From IMG/VR virus record IMGVR_UViG_2541047712_000002: a stretch of 64,000 bases of DNA. One strand, given 5' to 3'. The DNA comes from a virus (taxonomy: Duplodnaviria; Heunggongvirae; Uroviricota; Caudoviricetes). Position numbers: made by a program. Positions 3,001-57,000 of this stretch are shown piece after piece; the first letter of the stretch is position 1, and each line of letters opens with the position of its first letter.

Positions 3001-6000
3001 CTACCGGACAACCAACCTAACTTTCACAGGCAATCCGAAAACATTCATACGCGCGATACCCACGACACGCCATTACCCAAACAGCGAAGAAACACCTGAA
3101 CCGCTGAAACCCCAACGAAGCCTGTAACCGCAAGGTTTCTCTCAATCCCAAAAGACACGAAACATAACAATCACGGGAAACGCCATTACCCAATACACGA
3201 ATAACTACAAAAGCCTTTCACACTCCAGACAAACAACTCAAACACAATAACGAAAGCAATCGCCCACCTGCCATTACTCCATAGACGGAGAAGAACAATC
3301 ACCAAAACGACGAGAACACCCCATAGAAGAACCACCGCAAAACGAACGAAACCACATACACCGACAGAGAAAACAACACACCCAATTCACCAACAGAATT
3401 AGTCGCTGTATAGAACGTTCTGGAAGGAGTGAGCATTAACGCCTATAGAGAGGTTGAGACAGATAAAACACGAAGAAAACACAACATGTATAGCGAAGAA
3501 GCCAGGTATGTATAAGTGGGGAGGGAAGGAGGGGTGTCGCCTCCTTTTTCGTATTTATTCAACTCCTGATTTTATCCCCCGTAACACCCCTACGGTCAGC
3601 CTTCGGTCCATACAGGGAAAAGGCTGCATCCCGCTACAGAAACGGCTGGGTTGCCTTCGGGGAACGGCTGGAGGTTTTCAGGGAAACGGTCGAGTTGCCT
3701 GTGTGGATTTCGGGAGAAGGCTCGATGCCGGTTCAGGAACGGTGGCGTACCGGTATAGCGAGAGGGAGAGTTGCGGCTACCCACCTGTAATGTGCGGGAA
3801 GAAGAGAGGCGCTCACGTGCAGGCGGACTTGCTTACCGCTGGATTCCCTCTGAATGCCCAGCTACAGCGTAATTGTGCCAGACAGCCAACGGGTCACAAT
3901 CGATTTCAGTAGGTTTTCGGGGAGAGGATTATTCTGCCCACCAGCCACTTTCGGCCACTAAATCAGAATAATGTAAAAAGTGTACTCGGTACTGAACCTG
4001 AAAACTCACTGCCAAAACCACATTCACCGGAATAAAATCCTTTTTCGCCTGTGCGTTATTGCGATAATAACGCCAACAAGAAAACATGTTGTTTAAGGAT
4101 TGCTTTATGTTTGCAAATATCGACATCAACCAAATCAAGAAATTGACTCAAAAAGAGTTTGACCAGTTCTATGAGCTGGAAGGTTGGTCTTCCACTCTGA
4201 TCAATTCGCGGTGGGTGCTTGAGCTGATGACTCGTGATGACGCACCTGCTTTGATGATTTGCGACATGGGTGAAGATGCTGACTTTATGGATATGAGCGA
4301 ATTTTGTGTGGACACATACAACCGCAGCCAGAAGTACTACTTCACATGCGATAGCGAGAATGATGTTATTTCTAAGGTCTATCTTCACCTTGTCCAGCAT
4401 TGGGACGTTCAGGAGTTTCTTGAAGTATTCGAGTAAACCTAACCAAAGCCAGCAATGCTGGCTTAATTTCTCTATAGCCGCAGGGAAGAACCTGCATATC
4501 GCTCATGCACCTGATCATTATGCTTTGTAGCCGTTTTCTTATTGGTATTATTTACGCCATTGAGAAAACAAGTTGTTTACGGAGTTGTGATGAAAAAATC
4601 ATTGGTTCTTGGTCTGGACAAAGACCAGAAGAGAAAAGAGAAGCCTGCGCTGGTTGCTCAATTAACTTTGCTGGACATCGTTGCCAATGGAACCTCTATT
4701 CGTCTGTTCCGTGAAACAGCGGTGTCTTTCGATAAAAACACCTTTACTCGTTATGTAATGAATGTTCGTCGCCAGCGTGGAAAAGGCTGGATGGCATTTC
4801 AAAGAATGTGGCCGGAACATCAGCTCGAACTGGCCTTGATGGAAGTTAACCGCGTGGCCCAGCAAGAAATTCAGAGAGCATCAGTGATGGCAATAGCCTG
4901 ATAATGTGCAAGTGGTAATTAGTCGACAGTACGACAGCCCCGCCATCCTTACGGGGCTTTTTTGTATTGTAAGTACATACTTACGATCATAGAATATAAA
5001 AATAACCAAAACACTACGGAGAGTGAAATGACCGTTAAACGCGAAAAACTGACAGTTGATGTTTACTATGCCTCTGAAACCGCCGAAGGTAAGAATGTGG
5101 CAAAAATCACCGTTGTTACGTACAACACCGAAACTGGTGCCGAAGTCCAGGCCAGTACGATCGTGCGTAAAGGTGATGCCTCCGGCGGCGAGTACGCGAC
5201 TCAATACCAGTCCATTCTCGATGCAACTGACCCGCTGCTGCTGAAAATCGAGAACTACTTCCGCCAGGTTGATGAAGAGGTGTTTGAAACCATGATGAAT
5301 ATGGTTAACACCGTATTCGCCTCCAGCCTGAACACCAGCACCACCTGGATTGGCCAGTACGGTCTGCGCATTACCTCTGGCATTCCTGCCGACACCTTAA
5401 TCCCTGAAAGCGTATTCGCTTAATCCTCTTTAAATGGCGCGCAAACCGCGCCATTTTATTATGCCCGATAACAATTTGTTTTCTACCTTATCTGATTTGT
5501 GAAAATGATTTCACTGAAGCAACTTAATAAGGAAACCATCATGGGACTTGATATCTATATCGAGACACAGCCTAAAAACGATCTGAATAACGAGGCATCC
5601 AGAAAGCAGGTTGCTTACTTCCGTAAGTTCAATGCGCTCGTTGGGTGGATGGAGCGCAACGTAGGTGAAGTCGAAAATTGTGAGCTTTTAGAATTAACGA
5701 TGAATGACATTTGTTTTCTGAAGGCTCATTTGATGCACATAAACGAAAGTAATTGCGAAGAGTACTTGCCTACCCGGGAAGGTTTTTTCTTCGGCAGTCA
5801 GGAGTACGATGAAGGTTACTGGCATGATGTGGGGGAGTTGAAAGAGCTTGTGGAAGACCTGATCAGGAACCACGACTTTCACAATAACAGACTGACGTTC
5901 TGCGCCTGGTGGTAAATATGGGCGATTTCAAGAAACGTCTGAAGGAGAGAGCCGAGATGGTCAGAAAGCAAAACGCCTCTTCTGTCATCAGATACGCAAG

Positions 6001-54000: not shown

Positions 54001-57000
54001 CGCTACGGGCAACTTAAGGAGAACGAAACCATTACTATCCAAGCGAAACGATTCACTGCCACCATCACAAGAACACCTAGTCGTAGAGTGGCCTTGATCA
54101 AAAAAGTCACAACCGAATAAAAATACAATGATAAGTATTTACTTACTTATCTTTTGTGTATAAGATGACTTTGTTTTCGTTGAGACGCGACTGTTTGAAC
54201 TTAAATACAAGTGCAAACGAAGAAGTCTATCTGGCAGTAGCCTAATAAGCCAAACACCAGCGAGGTCAGTTTCCAGCCTCGTTACCGAAATGGGACACAC
54301 TGAGCGAGTGTGATTGCAGAACGCAGGAGGGAACATTCATGTTCCCTCCGATGAAGTAACAGAATGGGCGGTTGGTATATTTTCAACTCCATATGACTCC
54401 CGGATTCTTAGCCACTGACCGCCCATCCTGTTACGTCATTTGTTCAATTATGTCGTTTATACTGGGTTAAAAAGCGGCGACGTAGCCCGGCTGGTATGGT
54501 TAGCCAGCACACAACGTTGAGGCCATTACATTTTTATCAATTCTAAGGTTCTATTCACAGAGATACCGGCGAGCGTTGATATGTAACATGTTGGGCAAAC
54601 ATTCAATCGGAGTAGTGGCCTCAACGTTGTGAAGACAGGATTGTTGTGTAGGTTTAACCACTGTTGCCATTGGTGCCTGTTTTCACAACAAATGATTCCA
54701 TACATCACATTGTATAAATTACAAAGTAGGTGCTGTCCTCAGAAACATCATCTACTTAAAGATTTTGCCTTCTACTATTGAGCGAAGTCGAAAGCGTCTG
54801 GCACTAACGAAAAGTGCAAGTAGCGGTGCGTTTCCTGGCAGAAACTAAACCGTCGCGATTGGCACTGTTGAGTAATAAATACTGGCAGTGCTGAATTGAT
54901 GGTGTAGCTCAGCGGTAGAGCAGTTGGCTGTTAACCAACTGGTCGGTGGTTCGAATCCACCCACCATCGCCAATTTAGGGGAGTTAGTCCGTAGAGGTAG
55001 CGGTGTAGACTGTAAATCTACTGTCATGGCGACTCGGGTGGTTCGACTCCATCACTCCCCACCAAATTGCCGGTTTAGCTCAGCGGGAGAGCGCGAGAGC
55101 CAAAGCATCGTTTCTACTTCGGTAGACAGCCTTGCTGGTCAAATGACAACGATTCGATGTTAGGCCAGAGGTCAGCGGTTCGAGTCCGTTAACCGGCACC
55201 AATACAACGATAAGATCATTACGGTTAATCGTCGTTCATGTGCACAATGACTGGTCGAAAGGTAGTGATCTTACCGTTGTGGTGGATTCGCAGACTGATG
55301 CGATAGCTTTCTTGGATGTTAGGGAAATGCGGCCGCAAATCTTCCCTTTCGCGAGCGGTGATCGTCCGTAGTCCTAATTGGCTGCACCGTATGCCGGAGA
55401 TTCAGTACCGGCCACCACAACGGCCGGAGAGTAGGGAGCATGGTGCTCAAGCGGTCTTGAAAACCGTCCCATTGCGCAAGCGATGATGGTTCGATTCCAT
55501 TACTCTCCGCCAGACACAGCGTTGAGCGGTTTGGCCTTTTAATCACCCAGATTAAGACTCCGCTAACATAAACCAGACCGCTCAACGCTGTGATAGACAA
55601 TTACGGCAGACGTTCTTAACCATTGCTTCTTAGCATCGTAGCAACACTTTTTTTCAGCGCAAATAATTAAAGGGGCTTCGGCCCCTTTTTGCTTAGTTGA
55701 AATCCAAAGAATCAAGTTCTGCTTTAAATTTATCGACAATTTTCTCAACTTCAACAACAATTTCATCAATCACCTTTTCTTTGTGTTGATTAGAGTTGAG
55801 TGCTAAATAGGCATTTTCTAACTTATACCTAGACAGACTATTTTTAATCTCATCAGCGAATCTATTGGTGAAACCATTGGTTAACAGAATACTTCTCTCT
55901 CGGGGGGAAATAGGATACTTATCGTTGAGTTTTATTAGCCTCTTTAAATGTTTTTCATCCTTGATCACCCTCACTTTATTACCTGCGATTCTAAGCTCCC
56001 AGCCTATAAAACCAGGTAACAAAGAGTTGAACTCAGCTACTTTATCGGCTGCATTTTCCATCCTCAGCTCAATGCTGTTTCGCATATGCATAGGTAGGTC
56101 ATTAAATCTTTGAAGCAAATGTTGTCGGCAGGGGTTGTTGTAAGACCACAGAATTGCGAACGTAGCCCTTAAATGACGGTATCTTGAATCGATTTTAGGG
56201 GGCTCACGACCTCGAACCATTTCTTCAACATAAAACTCTACATCTTTTCGGTATTCGTTATCAAATATCACAGCAGCATAAGAGTCCAAATAATGAACTT
56301 TCGATATTGCTTCTTCAAAAAAAAGTTGGCCTTCGAAGAAGTTATACTTGCTTAGCAGGCTGTAAAGTCTCTTTGCGTCATAGGTTTTATTAGTGTCAAT
56401 ATTAAGGCCGAATGTAGCTATCAGCAGGCTTACATTAGGACTAATGCTGTTGCGCAGCTGTTCTATGTAAGCTCTCTTTTCATAATCGGCTGATGACGGC
56501 GAATAGAAGTCTTTATCTAAATAATCAAGAATTAAAACTATGTGGTTAATATATTTAATGTAAACGGAGTTTTTGGTTACATGGTAATAAATAGCCTTGA
56601 TGAGATTCATTCCCAGTTTTGCATTAAGTTCCCTATCATCCTGCAAGGTCTTGTTAACATCCTCAAGTAATCTATTATGCTGTTCAAGTAATATGCCGTA
56701 CCATTCCTTAAAAGAGGCTTTTTTCATTTCAAGGAGTGAAGCTGCCGTCAGCCTAGTGGCCCTCATTGCTGCCTTTGCACTATGCCTTGCCTCGTAAGCG
56801 GCCCATGCTGTGGCGAAAAATGCAAGTGAAGTGGCAAGTGTACCTATGACCTCTACGTTTTCCTTGACGGTATCCCAGAAAATAATCATCACTGTCCCAA
56901 GTATGAGGATTAACAAAACAGGCATTTTATCAGTGTCTTTGGTTAATTTTGAAACTGAATGATACCTAATCGACCATACCATTTCAGCTAGTTTAAAGCT

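What the first reader, a model, noticed from the sequence alone, without database searches (positions are those of the whole stretch)
4969..54151. Second family of AT-rich imperfect palindromes with a GATAAGTAAGT core at intergenic junctions
Copies at about 4969, 13144, 16405, 18441, 21866, 25435, 31936, 38290, 42129, 47052, 47171, 50608, 51479 and 54130. They lie just after stop codons and before the next gene, mostly in the structural, lysis and replication modules. The conserved core (not just hairpin potential) suggests sequence-specific recognition: candidate middle/late promoters or processing sites, distinct from the class A early motif.
Basis: seen in the sequence. Interest (0 to 1): 0.55.

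Follow-up and report, generated by a model that had tools for sequence, protein, structure and literature searches.

The report
Dispersed regulatory dyad of SSU5-like phage-plasmids
The repeated AT-rich palindromes are real copies of one conserved 20-26 bp protein-binding dyad (ATARGTA-N6-TACYTAT) that sits in the core of about two dozen promoter-like sites in front of the lytic genes of SSU5/pHCM2/pMT1-type phage-plasmids, and so most likely marks one undescribed but conventional regulon.

Summary
The window is an SSU5-like phage-plasmid, 98% identical to E. coli LF82 phage Cyrano. The motif family is real. TAAGTA/TACTTA is the most intergenic-enriched hexamer. TARGTA-N6-TACYTA occurs 9 times against 0.27 expected, and 12 of 13 sites are intergenic.

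Copies 16405 and 47052 are a different 56-bp hairpin repeat. One member inside the portal gene was missed.

GATAAGTAAGT is only the left half of a dyad that is symmetric to +/-13. About 24-30 copies per genome lie at orthologous junctions in Cyrano, SSU5, a Klebsiella relative and Y. pestis pFra, while the flanks diverge. They precede replication, recombination, nucleotide, structural and lysis genes, so they are not late-specific.

There is no RNA-type covariation and hairpin potential is weak, so recognition is of DNA by a dimer. The right arm doubles as a -10-like hexamer, and a -35 is usually absent. Two near-consensus promoters carry the dyad in their spacer and are silent in the lysogen.

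Best reading: a shared operator inside the lytic promoters, leaning to repression. A P1 Lpa-like activator model is the main rival. No Lpa homologue exists. The binding protein is unidentified.

The parts
4962..4987 (.). Dyad site (TTGTATTGTAAGT|ACATACTTACGAT) between an intrinsic terminator after hyp106 and hyp107. The left arm is deviant.
   Evidence: Orthologous sites exist in Cyrano, SSU5 and pJN2-26. The order is terminator, then site, then gene. A TTGTAA-17-TAGAAT promoter-like match overlaps it.
13141..13166 (.). Dyad site in the divergent UvsW(-)/ParB_N(+) control region. The arms TAAGTA-N6-TACTTA are perfect.
   Evidence: On the minus strand the arm runs into TATTAT/TATAAT, pointing at the UvsW-hyp117 operon. 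It is conserved in three genomes.
18432..18457 (.). Dyad site overlapping the TerL stop codon, 21 nt before the portal start.
   Evidence: It is orthologous in Cyrano, SSU5, pJN2-26 and Y. pestis pFra.
19936..19964 (+). Dyad inside the 3' end of the portal gene, lying in the spacer of a near-consensus promoter (TTGAAA-17-TATGAT), 110 nt before the scaffold-like gene and MCP.
   Evidence: It is kept in all relatives, including clades where the encoded peptide differs. Cyrano genes 4-5 are near silent in LB and rise 2.6-4.7 log2 in macrophage-grown cells.
21855..21880 (.). Dyad site (arms TAGATA/TATCTA) after the MCP stop and before the MCP terminator hairpin.
25430..25455 (.). Dyad site 61 nt before the tail-tube gene. 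Its right arm forms TACTAT.
   Evidence: Cyrano RNA steps up 2.5 log2 from gene 11 to gene 12 across this junction in MB6.
31938..31965 (.). Dyad site between tail genes M and L. In this window the right arm is degenerate or shifted. A conserved GC hairpin follows it.
38290..38315 (.). Dyad site between J and the tail-fibre gene, followed by a GC hairpin.
42127..42152 (.). Dyad site 73 nt before the holin gene. The arms TAGGTA-N6-TACCTA are perfect. It lies at the edge of a mosaic segment.
   Evidence: The distance to holin is 73 nt in four genomes, although the upstream genes differ. Homology to Cyrano and SSU5 resumes at 42112 and 42131.
47172..47197 (.). Dyad site 23 nt before hyp31 (DUF2971-neighbour gene), downstream of the 56-bp hairpin.
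50606..50631 (.). Dyad site 52 nt before hyp34. The arms are perfect, and it lies in the spacer of TTCAAA-17-TATCTT.
   Evidence: It stays with hyp34 when a gene is inserted after primase in SSU5 and pJN2-26. Cyrano gene 34 steps up 1.9-3.4 log2 in all conditions.
51483..51508 (.). Left half-site only (TGATAGGTAAGC), 12 nt before hyp35.
   Evidence: Only the left half is conserved in relatives. Cyrano RNA drops 2.4-4.3 log2 across this junction.
54128..54153 (.). Best palindrome in the window (ATGATAAGTATTT|ACTTACTTATCTT), after hyp39 and upstream of the tRNA cluster.
   Evidence: It is orthologous in three genomes.
57062..57087 (.). Weak candidate site (1 mismatch) in the orf445(-)/orf61(+) region. 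Membership is uncertain.
   Evidence: No orthologue was checked.
16088..16354 (+). Candidate trans-factor, not shown to bind. It is an 88-aa MarR-like winged-helix protein, the last gene of the operon headed by the 13153 dyad and immediately upstream of terS.
   Evidence: The AF2 model has pLDDT 82, and Foldseek gives TM 0.70-0.75 to MepR/MarR/ZitR. Homologues occur only in SSU5-like plasmids. Its mRNA is at background in LB and rises with late genes.
11258..11536 (-). Candidate trans-factor, not shown to bind. It is a 92-aa conserved protein (Cyrano gene 117) in the operon driven from the 13153 dyad region.
   Evidence: It is conserved in all three genomes and expressed in the LF82 lysogen at log2 6.3-9.9. 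The structure model is too poor to classify, pLDDT 65.

Best explanation
Each element is a binding site (operator) for one phage-plasmid-encoded dimeric DNA-binding regulator. It is built into the core of a sigma-70-type promoter at the head of a lytic gene or gene block. The dyad ATARGTA-N6-TACYTAT has weaker symmetry out to +/-13. It occupies the position of the promoter spacer, and its right arm runs into a TAT(C/T)AT -10-like hexamer. A bound dimer would therefore cover about -32 to -7. I commit to negative control. In the plasmid-prophage state a repressor sits on the roughly 24 dyads. There it occludes RNA polymerase and probably also blocks read-through from upstream genes. Induction frees all the lytic promoters together. 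Shown here: the motif, its symmetry, its conservation, its linkage to downstream genes and DNA-level rather than RNA-level constraint. Inferred: protein binding, the sign of regulation and the identity of the protein. The candidate proteins are the HTH repressor next to the integrase (Cyrano gene 45 family, outside this window), the 92-aa gene-117 protein and the MarR-like 88-aa protein upstream of terS.
For: The motif is non-random and intergenic. The logo from 61 sites is symmetric to +/-13. In 18 orthologous trios a conserved block spans -13 to +15 with flanks at background. In clades with TerL at 81-82% identity the 7-bp arms and the N6 spacing persist while the centre varies, which is typical of helix-turn-helix dimers. 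The dyads also occur at orthologous junctions of Y. pestis pFra. Mismatched stem pairs are G.U-type 69 against A.C-type 55, and the R/Y pair does not covary. RNA folds are weak or absent. The only systematically placed -10-like hexamer starts at +8, in 20 of 61 sites. Canonical sigma-70 promoters are depleted in the phage core, 20 against 30 expected and 17 against 26. Two sites have a real -35 with the dyad as spacer: TTGAAA-17-TATGAT inside the portal gene, and TTGAAA-17-TATCAT before Cyrano gene 56. Yet their downstream genes have about zero reads in the LB lysogen and rise 2.6-5.3 log2 under macrophage stress. Dyad junctions show larger RNA step-downs than other junctions, median -1.35 against -0.44, p=0.004. 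The dyad stays with the downstream gene across three rearrangements. The HTH repressor family occurs in 865 plasmid records with the same host distribution as a family marker found in 798 records. It is expressed in the lysogen. A related palindrome, GGTAAGTNCTTACC, lies 38 nt from its start codon.
Against: Most sites lack any -35, so they should be weak promoters even when free, which fits positive control better. The gene-34 promoter has perfect arms yet is expressed in the lysogen, and so is the UvsW operon. With intergenic gap size controlled, the step-down excess is only p=0.10, and step-ups are no more frequent at dyad junctions than at other gapped junctions, 11/21 against 19/37. The palindrome in the immunity region lacks the most conserved outer TA positions and is single. 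Phage SSU5 lacks the HTH repressor yet keeps all its dyads. Several sites lie only 12-23 nt from the annotated start codon, so a transcript started there would lack a leader. No binding or transcript 5' end has been measured.
Confidence: 0.42

Rival explanations
1. The dyads are activator-dependent, -35-less lytic promoters that work like P1 late promoters. A phage-encoded dimer binds the dyad centred near -19.5 and recruits or remodels sigma-70 RNA polymerase at the adjacent TAnnnT hexamer. The best candidate is the MarR-like 88-aa protein encoded just upstream of terS, where P1 lpa also sits. Without the activator the promoters are silent.
For: A -35 is absent at nearly all sites while TAnnnT sits at a fixed offset. 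In this clade the dyad centre is AAGT|ACTT, which resembles the P1 -22 box AAGTGACTT placed 4 nt before the -10. The MarR-like gene is restricted to this family. It is at background in the LB lysogen and rises together with MCP and tail-tube mRNAs. Step-ups occur at several dyad junctions under stress: 11->12, 55->56, 59->60, 3->4 and 106->107. In four cases the order is terminator, then dyad, then gene.
Against: There is no Lpa homologue. tblastn gives a best E of 0.17, and PF25716 is absent from 69 tested proteins. The AAGT/ACTT centre is not conserved in more distant relatives, whereas the arms are. Conservation is symmetric and covers the -10 hexamer itself, which is unusual for an activator. 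The two sites with near-consensus -35 and -10 are silent in the lysogen, which an activator-only model does not explain. The same motif precedes early-type replication and nucleotide genes.
Confidence: 0.27
2. The element acts at the RNA level. The transcribed palindrome forms a hairpin that serves as a weak terminator, a processing or stability site, or the target of an RNA-binding protein such as the conserved FljA-like protein.
For: The sites lie in transcribed intergenic regions, often next to stop codons. RNA abundance tends to fall across dyad junctions. A FljA-family protein, a family whose founder regulates mRNA post-transcriptionally (own knowledge), is conserved in the family. Some copies are followed by T-runs.
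Against: Predicted hairpins are weak, -1.4 to -8.3 kcal/mol, and 3 of 13 sites do not fold as the dyad. There is no excess of G.U over A.C mismatches and no covariation at the variable pair. The sequence of the arms is conserved, not the pairing. Half-sites are conserved alone (51483-51508). The dyad tracks the downstream gene, not the upstream 3' end.
Confidence: 0.06
3. The elements are module-boundary or linker sequences whose main role is to provide short homologies for recombinational shuffling of gene blocks. Alternatively they are sites for another DNA transaction, for example loading of the two ParB-like proteins in the manner of KorB or Noc sites.
For: One dyad lies exactly at a mosaic breakpoint before holin. 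Insertions in SSU5 and pJN2-26 lie next to the hyp34 dyad. Two ParB_N proteins are encoded right after a dyad. ParB relatives such as KorB and Noc bind dispersed palindromes (own knowledge).
Against: Most dyads are not at breakpoints. The fixed relation to a -10-like hexamer and to downstream genes is not explained. The variable centre with conserved arms is unlike parS-type sites.
Confidence: 0.07

Closest known systems
Phage P1 C1-controlled operators (dispersed immunity operators of a phage-plasmid)
   Same: Both have many copies (17 or more in P1, own knowledge; about 24 here) of one protein-binding sequence scattered round a plasmid-prophage genome. In both, the copies overlap promoters of replication, recombination, methylase and other lytic genes.
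   Different: P1 operators are asymmetric 17-mers (ATTGCTCTAATAAATTT type) bound by C1. Here the site is a symmetric 20-26 bp dyad, it also precedes structural and lysis genes, and the binder is unknown.
Phage P1 late promoters (Lpa-dependent: -10 hexamer plus the 9-bp inverted repeat AAGTGACTT at -22)
   Same: Both have -35-less promoter architecture with a palindrome directly upstream of TAnnnT. The AAGT/ACTT half-sites are shared in this clade. Both occur in about a dozen or more copies in a phage-plasmid.
   Different: The box here is 8 bp without a central base, is 3 nt rather than 4 nt from the hexamer, and is embedded in a much longer dyad whose arms, not centre, are conserved. There is no Lpa protein. 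The element is not restricted to late genes.
Mycobacteriophage L5/Bxb1 stoperators
   Same: Both have about 25-30 copies of a repressor-type site in short intergenic gaps throughout early and late gene blocks, close to stop and start codons. Both are compatible with blocking read-through in the prophage.
   Different: Stoperators are 13-bp, asymmetric and orientation-dependent (own knowledge). Here the sites are palindromic and coincide with -10-like hexamers.
MarR-type and CI/Cro-type operators
   Same: The geometry is the same: two 6-7 bp arms separated by about 6 bp, 16-26 bp in total, overlapping the -35/-10 region. A MarR-fold protein and an XRE-type HTH repressor are both encoded by the family.
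   Different: No binding has been shown, and the sequence resembles no characterised operator known to me.

Membership tests
P1 late (Lpa-dependent) promoters | A sigma-70 -10 hexamer (TAnnnT) without a -35 element. | tested here: met
   TAT(C/T)AT lies at +8..+13, with T at +13 in 40 of 61 sites and a strong hexamer in 20 of 61. TTGACA-like sequence is absent at the -35 position except at two sites. Caveat: the hexamer is mirrored on the other arm.
P1 late (Lpa-dependent) promoters | The 9-bp inverted repeat AAGTGACTT, 4 nt upstream of the -10 (the '-22 box'). | tested here: not met
   The P1 boxes were read from NC_005856. Here the centre is AAGT|ACTT, 8 bp, 3 nt from the hexamer, and it is not conserved in clades with TerL at 81-82% identity.
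P1 late (Lpa-dependent) promoters | An Lpa activator (Pfam PF25716) encoded by the element. | tested here: not met
   PF25716 hits P1 Lpa at 3e-57 but none of 9 candidates plus 60 Cyrano hypothetical proteins. tblastn of Lpa against four genomes gives E of 0.17 or worse.
P1 late (Lpa-dependent) promoters | Dependence on the host protein SspA. | not testable with these tools
   This needs genetics or in vitro transcription.
Mycobacteriophage stoperators | An asymmetric 13-bp site in one orientation relative to transcription. | tested here: not met
   The sites are palindromic to +/-13.
Mycobacteriophage stoperators | Tens of copies in short intergenic gaps across the whole genome. | tested here: met
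   There are 24-30 per genome, and 12 of 13 in the window are intergenic.
Mycobacteriophage stoperators | Binding by the immunity repressor, with a block to elongation. | tested here: inconclusive
   Lysogen RNA-seq shows larger step-downs at dyad junctions, p=0.004, falling to p=0.10 after the gap control. There are no binding data.
Intrinsic (rho-independent) terminators | A GC-rich stem followed by a U-tract. | tested here: not met
   The stems are AT-rich, -1.4 to -8.3 kcal/mol, and have no consistent T-run. True terminators lie beside some of the sites, not in them.
Structured RNA processing or regulatory hairpins | Pairing conserved through compensatory and G.U changes. | tested here: not met
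   G.U-type 69 against A.C-type 55. At pair 7 the counts are WC 28, GU 10, AC 16 and other 7.
MarR-family regulator/operator pairs | A dimeric winged-helix MarR-fold protein together with a 16-26 bp pseudo-palindrome overlapping the promoter core. | tested here: inconclusive
   The fold is present and the operator geometry is compatible. Binding could not be tested.

The most novel reading that the evidence does not exclude
One conserved dyad defines a supergroup-wide lytic regulon of about 24 promoters, kept from E. coli and Klebsiella phage-plasmids to S. Typhi pHCM2-type plasmids and Y. pestis pMT1/pFra. It is read by a small family-restricted winged-helix protein that activates -35-less promoters from a site centred near -19.5 and overlapping the -10. 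That would be an Lpa-independent, previously undescribed class of phage transcription activator, or a dual activator and road-block.
Probability: 0.2. Interest if true: 0.65.

Novelty: new member of a known kind. Interest (0 to 1): 0.45.

Why it matters
SSU5-supergroup phage-plasmids number in the hundreds among sequenced Enterobacterales plasmids (about 800 records in PLSDB carry the marker genes). They include Y. pestis pFra/pMT1 and carriers of fimbrial and resistance genes. In the literature I could search, nothing is described about how their lytic genes are switched. A single dyad that tags nearly every lytic transcription unit gives a direct handle. It predicts the promoters, defines the regulon, and turns 'which protein controls induction' into a short gel-shift and ChIP experiment with four or five named candidates. 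Mechanistically it is likely to be a conventional operator/promoter system.

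Tried and rejected
- **PWM refinement.** Iterative refinement from the window sites drifted into a 4-nt periodic pattern (TAAG TAAG TACT TACT) and hit each site in several registers and on both strands. I replaced it with an explicit half-site/dyad scan.
- **Lpa homology.** tblastn and Pfam searches on 69 proteins were negative.
- **Other -10 positions.** I looked for a second, variably spaced -10 downstream of the dyads, for example a -41.5 activator geometry suggested by the holin extended -10 TGATATAAA. No other preferred offset exists.
- **RNA hairpin, terminator or processing site.** Rejected on folding and covariation.
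- **Published LF82/Cyrano RNA-seq.** I used it to test promoter activity at dyad junctions. The result was inconclusive for step-ups, 11/21 against 19/37.
- **SSU5 lacking the HTH repressor.** I first read this as evidence against an immunity-repressor operator. The plasmid survey showed the repressor is near-universal in the family, so SSU5 is the exception.
- **Structure of the 92-aa gene-117 protein.** The model has pLDDT 65, so no fold search was made.
- **Host-factor sites.** By eye and from memory, LexA, IHF, NarL heptamer, TyrR box and MqsA sites do not fit.
- **Exact-consensus search of IMG/VR.** It returned mostly SSU5-like contigs, plus unrelated contigs carrying simple (AAGT)n(ACTT)n hairpins, which I treated as unrelated.
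- **Literature.** Searches for the motif strings and for SSU5/pHCM2 regulation found nothing. One 2026 preprint on a phage-plasmid promoter could not be opened.

Full report
**What the window is.** The window is an SSU5-like phage-plasmid. Megablast gives 98% identity over most of it to Escherichia phage Cyrano (pLF82, OV696614) and about 80% to Salmonella phage SSU5. I transferred the Cyrano annotation by tblastn to make a gene map. The map runs: MetRS, small genes, a minus-strand block ending in UvsW, a ParB_N operon, terS/terL and the structural genes (16.5-42 kb), lysis genes, a toxin-antitoxin pair, ParA, helicase/primase/ligase, three tRNAs, a fimbrial island and the integrase. Intergenic DNA is 12.6% of the window.

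- The quoted 11-mer with up to 2 mismatches occurs 37 times against 17.9 +/- 3.6 in shuffles.
- In an unbiased k-mer comparison, TAAGTA/TACTTA is the most intergenic-enriched hexamer of all. Twenty-six of 47 copies are intergenic, p=3e-12. The 8-mers ATAAGTAA (9 of 10) and GATAAGTA (8 of 9) lead their class.
- Read at the listed coordinates, 12 of the 14 copies share one architecture.
- The copies at 16405 and 47052 are instead two copies of a 56-bp AT-rich hairpin repeat (CCTG...TATATAAATAATAAGTAACTTATTAAATATATA...CAGG). That repeat has three copies per genome in the relatives.

**What the element is.**
- Alignment of orthologous intergenic regions from the window, SSU5 and Klebsiella phage pJN2-26 shows the motif kept at the same junctions while the flanks diverge. 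In the relatives it approaches a perfect palindrome, TAGGTAAGT|ACTTACCTA.
- A half-site/dyad scan finds 12-14 sites in the window, about 24 credible sites in Cyrano, 29 in SSU5 and 30 in pJN2-26. Nearly all have zero offset between the half-sites.
- The logo from 61 sites is A(T/A)(R)ATARGTAAGT|ACTTACYTAT(Y)(A/T)T, symmetric out to +/-13.
- Eighteen orthologous trios give a conserved block from -13 to +15, with flanks at background.
- In clades with TerL at 81-82% identity the 7-bp arms ATARGTA and TACYTAT and the N6 spacing persist, but the central hexamer varies. The arms are therefore the recognition elements.
- In the window, TARGTA-N6-TACYTA with up to 1 mismatch occurs 9 times against 0.27 expected. 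Twelve of 13 sites are intergenic, p=1.8e-10.
- Y. pestis pFra carries the dyad at orthologous junctions. A distant SSU5-like contig in IMG/VR has TTAAGTAAGTACTTACTTAA.

**Is recognition of DNA or RNA?** Among 732 stem positions, G.U-type mismatches (69) are no more frequent than A.C-type (55). The variable R/Y pair does not covary. Predicted RNA hairpins are weak, -1.4 to -8.3 kcal/mol, and three of 13 window sites do not fold as the dyad. One site keeps only its left half across genomes. The constraint is therefore on double-stranded DNA sequence, as expected for a dimeric protein.

**Where the sites lie.** Genome-wide they precede these genes:
- Structural and lysis genes: portal, the scaffold-like gene and MCP (from inside the portal gene), the Ig-like protein, tail tube, L, fibre and holin.
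- Other lytic genes: hyp31, hyp34, hyp35, SSB, genes 56 and 60, SbcD, NrdA, ThyX, Dam and others.

The motif is therefore not late-specific. It is absent from the class A regions. Class A is (G/T)ATAAT-N10-11-GAAAACAAnTTGTTT, found before the small early genes, ParA, helicase and terS.

Closeness to stop codons is incidental. In the three cases where the upstream neighbour differs between genomes, the dyad keeps its distance to the downstream start. For holin that distance is 73 nt in four genomes, against 18-130 nt to the upstream gene. For hyp34 it is 52-54 nt against 24-237 nt. For SbcD it is 123-126 nt against 35-132 nt.

**Relation to promoters.**
- The right arm continues into TAT(C/T)AT at +8..+13. 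This is the only offset at which good -10 hexamers accumulate, in 20 of 61 sites, and it is mirrored on the other strand in 14 of 61.
- With that hexamer as -10, the dyad is the spacer. The -35 position carries no TTGACA-like sequence at most sites.
- Two sites are exceptions: TTGAAA-17-TATGAT inside the portal gene (window 19936-19964) and TTGAAA-17-TATCAT before Cyrano gene 56.
- The portal-internal promoter and dyad are kept in clades where the peptide differs (ENKSVLTYD, ESKYLNTYD, DNRYVNTYD), although TYD is also conserved.
- Canonical sigma-70 promoter matches are otherwise depleted in the phage core.
- Four dyads follow intrinsic terminators and precede genes. Four others are followed by GC hairpins.

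**Experimental data I could reach.** The LF82 paper's S1 Table gives per-gene RNA-seq for Cyrano in five conditions (PMC9928086).
- Dyad junctions are transcript-level discontinuities. The mean absolute step in macrophage-6h cells is 2.15 against 1.26 log2, p=0.02.
- Step-ups are not more frequent there than at other gapped junctions, 11/21 against 19/37. Step-downs are larger, p=0.004, falling to p=0.10 with a gap control.
- Clear step-ups occur before tail tube (+2.5), gene 56 (+3.6), gene 60 (+3.65), gene 34 (all conditions), gene 4 and gene 107.
- The genes behind the two near-consensus promoters have essentially no reads in LB and rise 2.6-5.3 log2 under stress.

**Comparison with P1.** P1 late promoters, read from the annotated record, are AAGTGACTT, then 4 nt, then TAnnnT. 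The resemblance to AAGT|ACTT, then 3 nt, then TAnnnT is striking in this clade. However, the centre is not conserved in more distant relatives. No Lpa homologue exists. The symmetry here extends over the -10 itself. I therefore treat the P1 late promoter as a functional analogue at most.

**Who binds?** This is unknown. The candidates are:
- The XRE-type HTH repressor next to the integrase (Cyrano gene 45), which lies outside the window. It is expressed in the lysogen. It is present in 865 plasmid records with the same host spectrum as the family marker, which is found in 798 records. A related palindrome lies 38 nt from its start.
- An 88-aa protein just upstream of terS that models as a MarR-like winged helix (pLDDT 82, TM 0.70-0.75). 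It is restricted to this family and rises with late genes.
- The 92-aa gene-117 protein, expressed in lysogens. Its model is too poor to classify.
- A 71-aa winged-helix-like protein (53469-53684).
- Two ParB_N proteins.
- A FljA-like protein.

Phage SSU5 lacks the HTH repressor but keeps the dyads. Given the plasmid survey, SSU5 looks like a deletion derivative.

**Verdict on mechanism.** The element is a protein-binding dyad integrated in the cores of the lytic promoters. I give about 0.7 to that statement regardless of the sign of control. I lean to repression (0.42) for three reasons:
- The symmetric footprint covers the -10.
- The two intrinsically good promoters are silent in lysogens.
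- RNA tends to stop at dyad junctions.

The Lpa-like activator model (0.27) is kept alive by three observations:
- A -35 is generally missing.
- The MarR-like gene is expressed together with late genes.
- Two dyad-bearing transcription units (gene 34 and the UvsW operon) are expressed in the lysogen.

RNA-level roles and recombination or ParB-loading roles are minor alternatives.

**Novelty.** I found no description of this motif, or of SSU5-group transcriptional control, in the searchable literature. It is a new member of a known kind, namely dispersed phage operator/promoter motifs such as P1 C1 operators, P1 late promoters and L5 stoperators. It is useful rather than surprising.

Noticed in passing
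window 16378-16433 and 47035-47092: These are two copies of a 56-bp AT-rich hairpin repeat (CCTG..CTGTATATAAATAATAAGTAACTTATTAAATATATACGGAAGCAGG). Cyrano, SSU5 and pJN2-26 each have three copies. The Cyrano and SSU5 records are linearised inside the first copy, just upstream of terS. Cyrano RNA falls 6-7.7 log2 across the copy between genes 30 and 31. It may be a strong bidirectional terminator or a packaging- or replication-related site.
   Followed up: partly
window 1274, 4080, 4564, 6231, 16470, 44730, 47957 (inverted at 1233, 5477, 54172): This is the class A motif, (G/T)ATAAT-N10-11-GAAAACAAnTTGTTT. It combines a -10-like hexamer with a small AT hairpin just before the ribosome-binding site. 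It precedes the small genes at 1.3-6.7 kb, terS, ParA and the helicase gene. It resembles the promoter-plus-stem-loop cassettes (PeSL) that flank shuffled early genes in T4-type phages (own knowledge).
   Followed up: partly
window 21884-21910, 31970-31992, 38313-38333: GC-rich hairpins lie directly downstream of three dyads. The one after MCP is a canonical terminator conserved in all relatives. The M-L hairpin keeps its loop ACAGGATGT while its stem shows compensatory changes in pJN2-26. A transcript started from the dyad's -10 would begin inside or at the foot of these stems.
   Followed up: partly
window 58591-63265: A low-GC (33-37%) island encodes a PapB-like regulator, a fimbrial subunit, a PapD-type chaperone and a PapC-type usher. 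This chaperone-usher fimbrial operon is absent from Cyrano at this position.
   Followed up: partly
window 54898-55512: tRNA-Asn(GTT), tRNA-Tyr(GTA) and tRNA-Ser(TGA) lie here. About 750 nt upstream are the best dyad in the window and a highly conserved block (TTTGTTTTCGTTGAGACGCGACTGTTTGAAC...).
   Followed up: no
window 8859-9380 (-): This is a full-length FljA-family protein (Pfam PF03614, 1e-68; weak Hfq/LSM-like C-terminus). It is conserved at 75-78% identity in SSU5 and pJN2-26, and in Cyrano it is induced outside LB. Its role in a phage-plasmid is unknown.
   Followed up: partly
window 13181-16354: An operon just upstream of terS encodes two ParB_N-domain proteins, an ABC-type ATPase, a second ATPase-like protein and the MarR-like 88-aa protein. 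It is conserved from E. coli to Y. pestis pFra. Its function is unknown.
   Followed up: partly
L004-L006 (phage SSU5) versus Cyrano 39.5-43.0 kb: Phage SSU5 lacks the integrase/HTH-repressor/gene-46 module and the S24 peptidase gene, which about 865 related plasmids carry. The namesake phage therefore looks like a deletion derivative of a temperate phage-plasmid.
   Followed up: partly
window 42166-42174: A conserved extended -10-like sequence, TGATATAAA, lies 25 nt downstream of the holin dyad in all four genomes. It is a second candidate promoter for the lysis genes, and it would place the dyad near -41.5.
   Followed up: no
window 1-1140: The phage-plasmid carries a methionyl-tRNA synthetase gene (C-terminal part in the window, 100% identical to Cyrano gene 100).
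   Followed up: no
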